From assembly GCF_003918875.1 (NCBI RefSeq), contig NW_025766525.1, forward strand, positions 438,865 through 502,864: DNA of 64,000 nucleotides, written 5' to 3'. Below are positions 50,117-50,242 of the stretch, in pieces. Both the position numbers and the translations under genes were made by a program. Source of the DNA: Haliotis rubra. Taxonomy: Eukaryota. Below the pieces are notes generated by a model that saw only the letters and a program-made list of their open reading frames with translations, searched no databases and was not told the origin of the DNA. Within the stretch, counting starts at the first letter, position 1. Every line of letters starts with the position of its first letter.

Positions 50117-50242
50117 CCTGGACGGCAGCATCACCTCCATCGTGTCCCTGTCCCATGATTCCCTTGTGTGTGCGACCCATGAGTGCGACCGAGTTGCCGC
50201 TAGAGTCACTGTGTAAACAGCGGGACATGTTTGTTGTGCCAG
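50117..50242 (+). CDS. WDCP: WDCP-like gene, coding exon 7, disrupted by a 13 bp tandem insertion (50178-50190) that shifts the frame
   Basis: Strong acceptor tgttatgttgcag|C and strong donor CCAG|gtaatg. Frame A gives G|LDGSITSIVSLSHDSLVCAT then HECDRVAARVTV*. Frame C gives …ATELPLESLCKQRDMFVVP and is in phase with exon 8. Removing one copy of the direct repeat gcgaccCATGAGTgcgacc yields the continuous peptide LDGSITSIVSLSHDSLVCATELPLESLCKQRDMFVVP with correct phases on both sides. Recollected WDCP has …SITATVDSQVAIATELPLDKICGL…. Confidence 0.55.

What the first reader, a model, noticed from the sequence alone, without database searches (positions are those of the whole stretch)
50172..50190. 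A 13 bp direct tandem insertion (gcgacc-CATGAGT-gcgacc) frameshifts coding exon 7
Exon 7 (50117-50242) has a strong acceptor and donor. The frame that is in phase with exon 6 hits TAA at 50214. The frame in phase with exon 8 is open only in the 3' half. The two halves join into one continuous, homologue-like peptide (…SLVCAT|ELPLESL…) if one copy of the 13 bp direct repeat at 50172-50190 is removed (13 = 1 mod 3). This could be a pseudogenising or haplotype-specific indel, an assembly error, or compensation by an internal acceptor (catgag|T at 50184), which would delete 22 residues of a WD blade.
Basis: seen in the sequence. Interest (0 to 1): 0.75.

Follow-up and report, generated by a model that had tools for sequence, protein, structure and literature searches.

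The report
Frameshifting 13-bp insertion in abalone WDCP
Exon 7 of the blacklip abalone (Haliotis rubra) WDCP gene carries 13 extra bases that break its reading frame; this is an ordinary loss-of-function indel or assembly error, and NCBI's annotation already marks the protein as low quality.

Summary
The window is the Haliotis rubra reference assembly. The + strand gene (12639-59146, 16 GT-AG coding exons) is the orthologue of WDCP (Pfam PF15390). Exon 7 (50117-50242) holds 13 bases that the congener H. asinina lacks; its exon 7 is otherwise identical apart from one synonymous base. About 40 other animal orthologues lack any insertion at the same spot in their proteins. As written, the CDS stops at TAA 50214-50216, giving 229 aa instead of 720. 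Removing the 13 bases gives exactly the H. asinina peptide for this exon.

The insert is not a clean duplication. It is an 8-bp exact repeat (GTGCGACC) with a CATGA filler, or equivalently an 11/13 tandem copy.

This is the only defect in the CDS, and dN/dS against H. asinina is 0.12. The gene is therefore not an old pseudogene.

NCBI's model XP_046570895.1 ("LOW QUALITY PROTEIN") equals the window's spliced CDS with one base deleted. That repair creates an artificial RPMS insertion.

A real, recent null allele (most likely) cannot be told from a polishing artefact without reads. The proposed internal acceptor is in frame but weak (GAG|T). It would delete 18 residues, not 22.

This is low-interest and essentially already flagged.

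The parts
12639..59146 (+). WDCP (WD repeat and coiled-coil-containing protein) gene of Haliotis rubra. It has 16 coding exons: 12639-12693, 27115-27232, 35301-35461, 41247-41361, 44601-44673, 45732-45799, 50117-50242, 51135-51250, 53605-53727, 54297-54392, 54732-54909, 55189-55724, 56549-56595, 57144-57202, 57717-57848 and 58974-59146 (stop codon included).
   Evidence: All introns are GT-AG. The spliced CDS is 2176 nt (1 mod 3). Deleting base 50172 reproduces XP_046570895.1 exactly, and deleting 13 bases gives a 720-aa ORF. Pfam PF15390 matches at E about 1e-73. tblastn with P0008 is 100% identical in every exon.
45732..45799 (+). Exon 6. It ends in phase 2 (..CCT GG|gtaagg).
50117..50242 (+). 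Exon 7, 126 nt here against 113 nt in H. asinina. In the AlphaFold model of the H. asinina orthologue it encodes two beta-strands of roughly the fifth propeller blade and the conserved ELPLE motif.
50178..50190 (+). The 13 extra bases (CATGAGTGCGACC). Because of the 8-bp repeat, any 13-base window starting between 50170 and 50178 is an equivalent placement.
   Evidence: Alignment with H. asinina; removal tests.
50170..50177 (+). First copy of the 8-bp exact direct repeat GTGCGACC.
50183..50190 (+). Second copy of the 8-bp exact direct repeat GTGCGACC.
50152..50158 (+). CCCATGA, identical to the new junction string at 50176-50182. It is a possible template for the CATGA filler.
   Evidence: About 2% of possible 5-mer fillers, together with the CC before them, would find such a match within +-80 nt. 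This is a post hoc test.
50214..50216 (+). Premature TAA in the frame coming from exon 6. The product would be 217 native residues plus the 12 aberrant residues HECDRVAARVTV.
50182..50184 (+). Cryptic acceptor AG|T created by the insertion. The junction 45799|50184 is in frame and gives a 702-aa ORF lacking LDGSITSIVSLSHDSLVC.
   Evidence: PWM score -7.9, below all 15 real acceptors and below 88% of all AG dinucleotides in the gene. Position -3 is G, whereas all real sites are YAG.
51135..51250 (+). Exon 8. It is in phase with the 3' half of exon 7.

Best explanation
A real and evolutionarily very recent 13-bp insertion lies in exon 7 of the H. rubra WDCP gene on the haplotype that was assembled. 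It arose as an imperfect local duplication. Eight bases copy the adjacent GTGCGACC. The 5-base filler CATGA matches CCCATGA 24 nt upstream, which suggests replication slippage or template switching, or polymerase-theta-type templated end joining.

The insertion shifts the frame after Thr217 and adds 12 wrong residues before TAA 50214-50216. The product would be left with only four and a half blades of a seven-bladed WD40-like propeller. It would lose the rest of the propeller, the coiled coil and the conserved C-terminal domain. The stop lies nine exon junctions upstream of the last one, so the mRNA should be degraded by nonsense-mediated decay. The allele is effectively null.

The species is highly heterozygous and alternative haplotigs were purged from the assembly. 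The allele is therefore most likely heterozygous or polymorphic rather than a fixed gene loss.

Shown: the insertion relative to the congener and all orthologues, the frameshift, and the intactness and constraint of the rest of the gene. Inferred: that the bases are present in the animal, the mutational mechanism, NMD, and heterozygosity.
For: - Species and gene. P0008 is XP_046570895.1, 'LOW QUALITY PROTEIN: WD repeat and coiled-coil-containing protein-like [Haliotis rubra]'. It is 100% identical to every exon of the window and is reproduced exactly by deleting one base.
- The insertion is derived. H. asinina exon 7 is identical except for the 13-base gap and one synonymous site. The Nucella exon has the same borders and no insertion. 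None of about 40 orthologues has an insertion there.
- The event is recent. It is the only frame defect in 2.2 kb of CDS and all 15 introns are GT-AG. dN/dS against H. asinina is 0.12 overall and 0.16 downstream of the frameshift, with dS 0.26.
- The insert looks like a mutation rather than read noise. It has an 8-bp exact repeat, is an 11/13 tandem copy, and its filler matches a 7-mer nearby.
- The same locus shows other H. rubra-specific tandem duplications that H. asinina lacks. One is a 137-bp duplication 51 bp upstream of the exon. Another is a 66-bp x4 array across the intron 3/exon 4 border.
- Assembly history (PMC6774278). Heterozygosity was 1.27-1.44% and haplotigs were purged. The assembly was polished with Pilon using Illumina reads. 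From my own knowledge of the tool, Pilon normally removes a 13-bp insertion that reads do not support.
- Structure. The site is at the end of strand 212-217 in a confidently modelled (pLDDT >95) WD40-like propeller.
Against: No reads, transcripts or second H. rubra individual could be examined, so the presence of the 13 bases in the animal is not shown. The assembly is an early Nanopore hybrid (about 30x, 2x Racon and 1x Pilon, then quickmerge). Such assemblies carry residual indel errors, and NCBI's LOW QUALITY label treats the defect as a possible sequence error. The two mismatches in the 13-mer copy and the match of the filler to CCCATGA are post hoc observations (p about 0.02).
Confidence: 0.6

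Rival explanations
1. Assembly or polishing artefact. The animal has the 113-nt exon, and the 13 bases were introduced by consensus building (Racon/Pilon/quickmerge) in a region that is heterozygous for repeats.
For: The assembly method was about 30x Nanopore, two Racon rounds and one Pilon round, a merge of two assemblies, and 1.3-1.4% heterozygosity. The exon is flanked by a 137-bp tandem duplication 51 bp upstream and a 19-bp minisatellite 38 bp downstream. Such contexts make alignment and local reassembly error-prone. NCBI labels the product LOW QUALITY PROTEIN. The rest of the gene is perfectly intact and constrained, which is also what an artefact predicts.
Against: From my own knowledge of these methods, typical residual Nanopore errors are 1-2 base indels in homopolymers, not a complex 13-mer. 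A junction artefact would be expected to be an exact copy of the flank, whereas this one has a 5-base filler. Pilon with deep Illumina data should have removed an unsupported 13-bp insertion. There are no other indel errors in 2.2 kb of CDS.
Confidence: 0.27
2. The true allele is a 12-bp in-frame insertion (four extra residues, RPMS) plus a 1-base assembly error. This is the reading implied by NCBI's repair.
For: Deleting one base (50172) gives an uninterrupted 724-aa protein identical to XP_046570895.1.
Against: This needs two independent events at one spot. The 13-base unit matches the repeat period exactly. RPMS would sit at the end of a confidently modelled beta-strand, next to the most conserved motif of this region, where no orthologue has any insertion. 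From my own knowledge of the pipeline, NCBI's one-base edit is a minimal frame repair and not evidence of the true sequence.
Confidence: 0.05
3. The insertion is real but functionally compensated by splicing. Exon 6 would join the new internal acceptor (45799|50184). Alternatively, the cryptic donor GT at 50170 would join exon 8. Either gives an in-frame protein lacking 18 or 20 residues.
For: Both junctions are in frame and give long ORFs. The AG at 50182-50183 exists only because of the insertion.
Against: The acceptor is GAG|T, with PWM score -7.9 against -2.3 to 13.9 for the 15 real sites. It competes with a strong authentic acceptor 67 nt upstream. The cryptic donors score about 0, against 2.0-11.6 for real donors. 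The deleted residues form one or two core strands of a propeller blade modelled at pLDDT >95, so the product would probably misfold.
Confidence: 0.03
4. WDCP is a fixed pseudogene in H. rubra, so the species has lost the gene.
For: The reference carries a disabling frameshift. WDCP has no known essential function; the papers retrieved for it concern mainly its role as an ALK fusion partner.
Against: There is only one lesion. All splice sites are intact. dN/dS downstream of the lesion is 0.16, with no further stops or frameshifts in about 1.5 kb. Any fixation would therefore have to be extremely recent.
Confidence: 0.07

Closest known systems
RefSeq model XP_046570895.1, 'LOW QUALITY PROTEIN: WD repeat and coiled-coil-containing protein-like [Haliotis rubra]'
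   Same: It is the same locus and the same assembly. All 16 exons are identical, and the model exists because of this very frameshift.
   Different: NCBI repaired the frame by dropping one base, which gives ...LVC-RPMS-ATELPL... (724 aa). Comparison with H. asinina shows that the parsimonious repair is removal of all 13 bases (720 aa, no RPMS).
Haliotis asinina WDCP-like, XP_067675634.1 (locus L002)
   Same: It is the orthologue. It is 93% identical in protein, has the same 16-exon structure, and its exon 7 is identical apart from one synonymous site.
   Different: It lacks the 13 bases, has an intact 725-aa ORF, and lacks the 137-bp and 66-bp tandem duplications seen in H. rubra.
Human WDCP / C2orf44 family (Pfam PF15390)
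   Same: The Pfam family match is at E about 1e-73. There is an N-terminal WD40-like propeller, a long helix (coiled coil) near residue 580-610 and a conserved C-terminal domain.
   Different: The abalone protein is a distant orthologue. The vertebrate-like representatives are about 21-27% identical. Nothing about its function was tested here.
Short tandem-duplication or templated-insertion frameshift alleles (replication slippage, polymerase-theta end joining)
   Same: The insert length equals the repeat period. Eight bases copy the adjacent sequence, and the filler matches sequence 24 nt away.
   Different: The mechanism is inferred from sequence alone. The copy is imperfect (11/13), and no mutational intermediate or second allele was seen.

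Membership tests
WDCP family (Pfam PF15390) | Match to the family HMM above the gathering score | tested here: met
   P0008 scores 247.9 bits and P0119 250.7 bits, against a cut-off of 25.3.
WDCP family (Pfam PF15390) | N-terminal WD40-type beta-propeller | tested here: met
   In the AlphaFold model of the H. asinina orthologue, residues 1-220 and 280-410 have pLDDT >90. The Foldseek top hits are seven-bladed WD40 propellers such as Cdc20, WDR4, coronin and WDR61, at E about 1e-9.
WDCP family (Pfam PF15390) | Coiled-coil segment followed by a conserved C-terminal domain | tested here: met
   The model has a helix at 578-610 and a beta domain at 626-699 with pLDDT >90. The coiled-coil state itself was not tested.
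Old (unitary) pseudogene | Several disabling mutations and/or lost splice sites | tested here: not met
   There is one frameshift only, and all 15 introns are GT-AG.
Old (unitary) pseudogene | Relaxed constraint (dN/dS near 1) | tested here: not met
   dN/dS is 0.12 overall and 0.16 downstream of the lesion, measured against H. asinina. This is a pairwise value, so a very recent relaxation would not show.
Simple tandem duplication (slippage) indel | The inserted bases are an exact copy of the adjacent bases | tested here: inconclusive
   11 of 13 bases match, including an 8-bp exact core, with two mismatches at the junction.
Templated insertion (template switch / polymerase-theta type) | Filler bases are copied from sequence within a few tens of bases | tested here: met
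   CCCATGA at 50152-50158 equals the junction at 50176-50182. About 2% of possible fillers would match by chance, and the test is post hoc.
Assembly artefact | Raw reads do not contain the 13 bases | not testable with these tools
   No read data were available. Exact-sequence look-ups of the repaired, truncated and isoform products found nothing, and a DNA pattern scan of metagenome contigs found nothing.
NMD-targeted nonsense allele | The stop codon lies more than about 50-55 nt upstream of the last exon-exon junction | tested here: met
   TAA 50214-50216 is in exon 7 of 16. Whether decay actually occurs was not tested.

The most novel reading that the evidence does not exclude
The 13-bp insertion is real and common or fixed in Haliotis rubra. 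That would make it a natural knockout of WDCP, a gene conserved across animals whose function is poorly characterised. Alternatively, the allele is kept partly functional by the acceptor that the insertion itself creates, giving a propeller that lacks 18 residues.
Probability: 0.08. Interest if true: 0.3.

Novelty: already known. Interest (0 to 1): 0.1.

Why it matters
It matters mainly for annotation quality. The RefSeq protein XP_046570895.1 carries four residues (RPMS) that are a by-product of a one-base frame repair. The congener shows that the correct repair is removal of 13 bases.

If reads confirm the insertion, it is one more heterozygous loss-of-function allele in a highly polymorphic marine mollusc. 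It would also be a small example of the tandem-duplication activity that marks this locus. It opens no long-standing question.

Tried and rejected
- The search for homologous proteins with spliced window peptides returned only Nucella, Mytilus and Argopecten fragments, or nothing at all. It never returned the Haliotis proteins, although they are in the collection. The exhaustive representative search found them.
- The look-up of encoding contigs found no record for P0002, P0003, P0004 and P0008.
- The genomic ORF across exon 7 is not on record.
- Exact look-ups found nothing for the repaired 720-aa protein, the truncated 229-aa product, the 702-aa cryptic-acceptor isoform and two genomic ORFs.
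- A gapped DNA pattern that matches both alleles found nothing in metagenome contigs.
- The first AlphaFold run, with a 4-sequence alignment, was unusable (pLDDT 43). A 40-sequence alignment was needed.
- No solved structure of a WDCP relative exists in the PDB by sequence search.
- Skipping exon 7 was rejected because it does not restore the frame: the ancestral exon is 113 nt (2 mod 3), so joining exon 6 to exon 8 shifts the frame.
- A 13-nt intron was rejected as too short to be spliced.
- Programmed +1 ribosomal frameshifting was rejected as unlikely; no recoding signal was searched for. This rests on my own knowledge.
- An old pseudogene was rejected.

Full report
**What is in the sequence**

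The region reads ...CCCTTGTGT GTGCGACC CATGA GTGCGACC GAGTTGCC.... The exact repeat is 8 bp, GTGCGACC, at 50170-50177 and 50183-50190. The repeat finder reports an 11-mer pair (10/11) at spacing 13. Read as two tandem 13-mers, 11 of 13 bases match.

Exon 7 is 50117-50242, with acceptor ttgttatgttgcag|C and donor CAG|gtaatg. The frame coming from exon 6 gives LDGSITSIVSLSHDSLVCATHECDRVAARVTV and then TAA at 50214-50216. The frame leading into exon 8 is open only in the 3' part. Deleting any 13-base window within the repeat gives LDGSITSIVSLSHDSLVCATELPLESLCKQRDMFVVP.

This is the only short-period direct repeat of 8 bp or more in about 1.8 kb of the gene's coding exons. Only 1.5% of shuffled versions of exon 7 contain one.

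**Which gene and which genome**

A spliced query from the open segments hit mollusc proteins of Pfam family PF15390, WDCP. An exhaustive HMMER search with their alignment returned 116 relatives. One of them, P0008, is 100% identical to every exon of the window. It is XP_046570895.1, 'LOW QUALITY PROTEIN: WD repeat and coiled-coil-containing protein-like [Haliotis rubra]'. Its 90% cluster also holds XP_067675634.1 of H. asinina.

I rebuilt the gene as 16 coding exons between 12639 and 59146, all with GT-AG introns. The spliced CDS is 2176 nt (1 mod 3) and stops in exon 7 after 229 codons. Deleting the single base 50172 reproduces XP_046570895.1 exactly. Deleting the 13 bases gives a 720-aa ORF.

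The window is therefore the H. rubra RefSeq assembly. NCBI's 'low quality' label refers to this frameshift, which is the only defect of the model.

**Comparison with relatives**

The H. asinina protein reads ...GLDGSITSIVSLSHDSLVCATELPLESLCKQRDMFVVPD....

At the DNA level, H. asinina exon 7 (L002:45793-45905, 113 nt) aligns with the window's exon without any difference except a 13-base gap and one synonymous C/T. The splice sites are conserved.

The Nucella lapillus exon has the same borders and phases and no insertion. In an alignment of about 40 family representatives from across animals, only the NCBI-repaired H. rubra protein has residues (RPMS) at this position. That position directly precedes the conserved [AT][ED]LPL[ED] motif.

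The 13 bases are therefore a derived state, seen so far only in this H. rubra assembly.

**Age of the lesion**

There is no other stop or frameshift anywhere in the CDS, and no splice site is damaged. Nei-Gojobori dN/dS between the repaired H. rubra CDS and H. asinina is 0.12 overall (dS 0.26). For the 503 codons downstream of the lesion it is 0.16.

A long-standing pseudogene is excluded. The lesion is either very recent or not real.

**Consequence for the protein**

An AlphaFold model of the H. asinina orthologue, built with a 40-sequence alignment, is confident (pLDDT >90) for residues 1-220 and 280-410. It shows beta-strands at 202-207 and 212-217 and a short helix at 221-226. These all lie within exon 7. 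Further on there is a long helix at 578-610 and a C-terminal beta domain at 626-699. Foldseek matches the N-terminal 400 residues or so to seven-bladed WD40 propellers.

By my count of the strands in the model, the frameshift follows Thr217, at the end of the second strand of about the fifth blade. The 229-residue product could not close the propeller. It would also lack everything downstream.

The stop is in exon 7 of 16, so nonsense-mediated decay is expected. That is an inference from the general rule and was not tested.

**Splicing rescue**

The insertion creates an AG at 50182-50183. The junction 45799|50184 is in frame and yields a 702-aa ORF that lacks LDGSITSIVSLSHDSLVC. That is 18 residues, not 22.

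The site is GAG|T, whereas all 15 real acceptors of the gene are YAG. In a crude PWM built from those 15 sites it scores -7.9. The real sites score between -2.3 and 13.9 in leave-one-out tests, and 88% of all AG dinucleotides in the gene score higher than the cryptic site. The authentic acceptor 67 nt upstream is one of the best in the gene.

A cryptic donor at 50170 would also be in frame, but it scores about 0. Rescue is possible in principle but unlikely to be the main outcome. It would also remove core strands of a blade.

**Origin of the 13 bases**

Taking H. asinina as the ancestral state (TGTGTGCGACYGAG), the insert is CATGA followed by GTGCGACC. The second part copies the adjacent 8 bases. 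The new junction CCCATGA is identical to 50152-50158, 24 nt upstream. About 2% of possible fillers would match in this way within +-80 nt, and the test is post hoc.

This pattern fits template switching or slippage, or polymerase-theta-type templated repair. That interpretation is my inference from general knowledge.

The locus is rich in lineage-specific tandem duplications that H. asinina lacks.

- A 137-bp duplication (98-99% identical) ends 51 bp upstream of exon 7.
- A 66-bp unit is repeated four times across the intron 3/exon 4 border.
- Most introns hold long minisatellites.

**Real allele or artefact**

This cannot be settled here, because no reads or independent H. rubra sequences were reachable.

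The assembly came from about 30x Nanopore data, wtdbg and DBG2OLC assemblies polished with two rounds of Racon and one of Pilon, quickmerge, and haplotig purging. The animal had 1.27-1.44% heterozygosity (PMC6774278).

Several points favour a real allele.

- The insert is complex and partly templated, not a homopolymer slip.
- Illumina polishing left it in place.
- There are no other indel errors in the CDS.
- Purging haplotigs keeps one arbitrary haplotype.

Three points favour an artefact.

- The assembly technology was early and error-prone.
- The repeats flanking the exon are probably heterozygous.
- The gene is otherwise perfect.

I put about 0.6 on a real, recent null allele (probably heterozygous or polymorphic). 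I put about 0.27 on an artefact. Small weights go to a 12-bp insertion plus a 1-base error, to splicing compensation, and to a fixed loss.

**Verdict**

The feature is an ordinary frameshifting indel in a gene that NCBI has already marked as low quality. The only new points are two.

- The right repair is removal of 13 bases rather than one, so the RPMS in XP_046570895.1 is artificial.
- The cryptic-acceptor idea is weak and would cost 18 residues.

Interest is low.

Noticed in passing
window 41000-41266: A 66-bp unit is repeated four times across the intron 3/exon 4 border. It leaves three upstream decoy copies of '...gtgatgcag|GATGTCTATGGCACCCCAG|gtattaga' before the real exon 4 start at 41247. 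These are 19-nt pseudo-exons with both an AG and a GT. H. asinina has a single copy.
   Followed up: partly
window 49792-50065: A 137-bp tandem duplication (98-99% identical) lies in intron 6 and ends 51 bp upstream of exon 7. It is bounded by the short homology TGTTGCTCAT and is single-copy in H. asinina.
   Followed up: yes
window 50280-50470: A 19-bp minisatellite (about 9 copies) in intron 7 starts 38 bp after the exon 7 donor.
   Followed up: no
window 38370-41013, 41439-43991, 44973-45659, 45817-48390, 51373-52667, 52778-53442, 57866-58549: The introns of the gene are packed with long minisatellite arrays, with periods of 19-54 bp and up to 128 copies. Similar arrays lie upstream at 4634-6001, 8962-10942 and 22551-24328.
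   Followed up: no
window ~2838-3856 (+): Overlapping open segments have the look of a degraded Tc1/mariner transposase (e.g. ...GRLEAGEPQSAVARHFNVHQSPISRLWDRF...). This was judged by eye and not searched.
   Followed up: no
L001 (Nucella lapillus) 18172-18258, 19339-19482, 26050-26097, 34981-38004: The Nucella WDCP locus also carries partial duplicate pseudo-exons of exons 3, 4 and 5. Its annotated product (236 aa) stops just after exon 7, beside a reverse-transcriptase ORF, so that model is probably truncated.
   Followed up: no
tools: the search for homologous proteins never returned the two Haliotis WDCP proteins, although both are in its collection and are nearly identical to the queries. 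Only the exhaustive representative search found them.
   Followed up: partly
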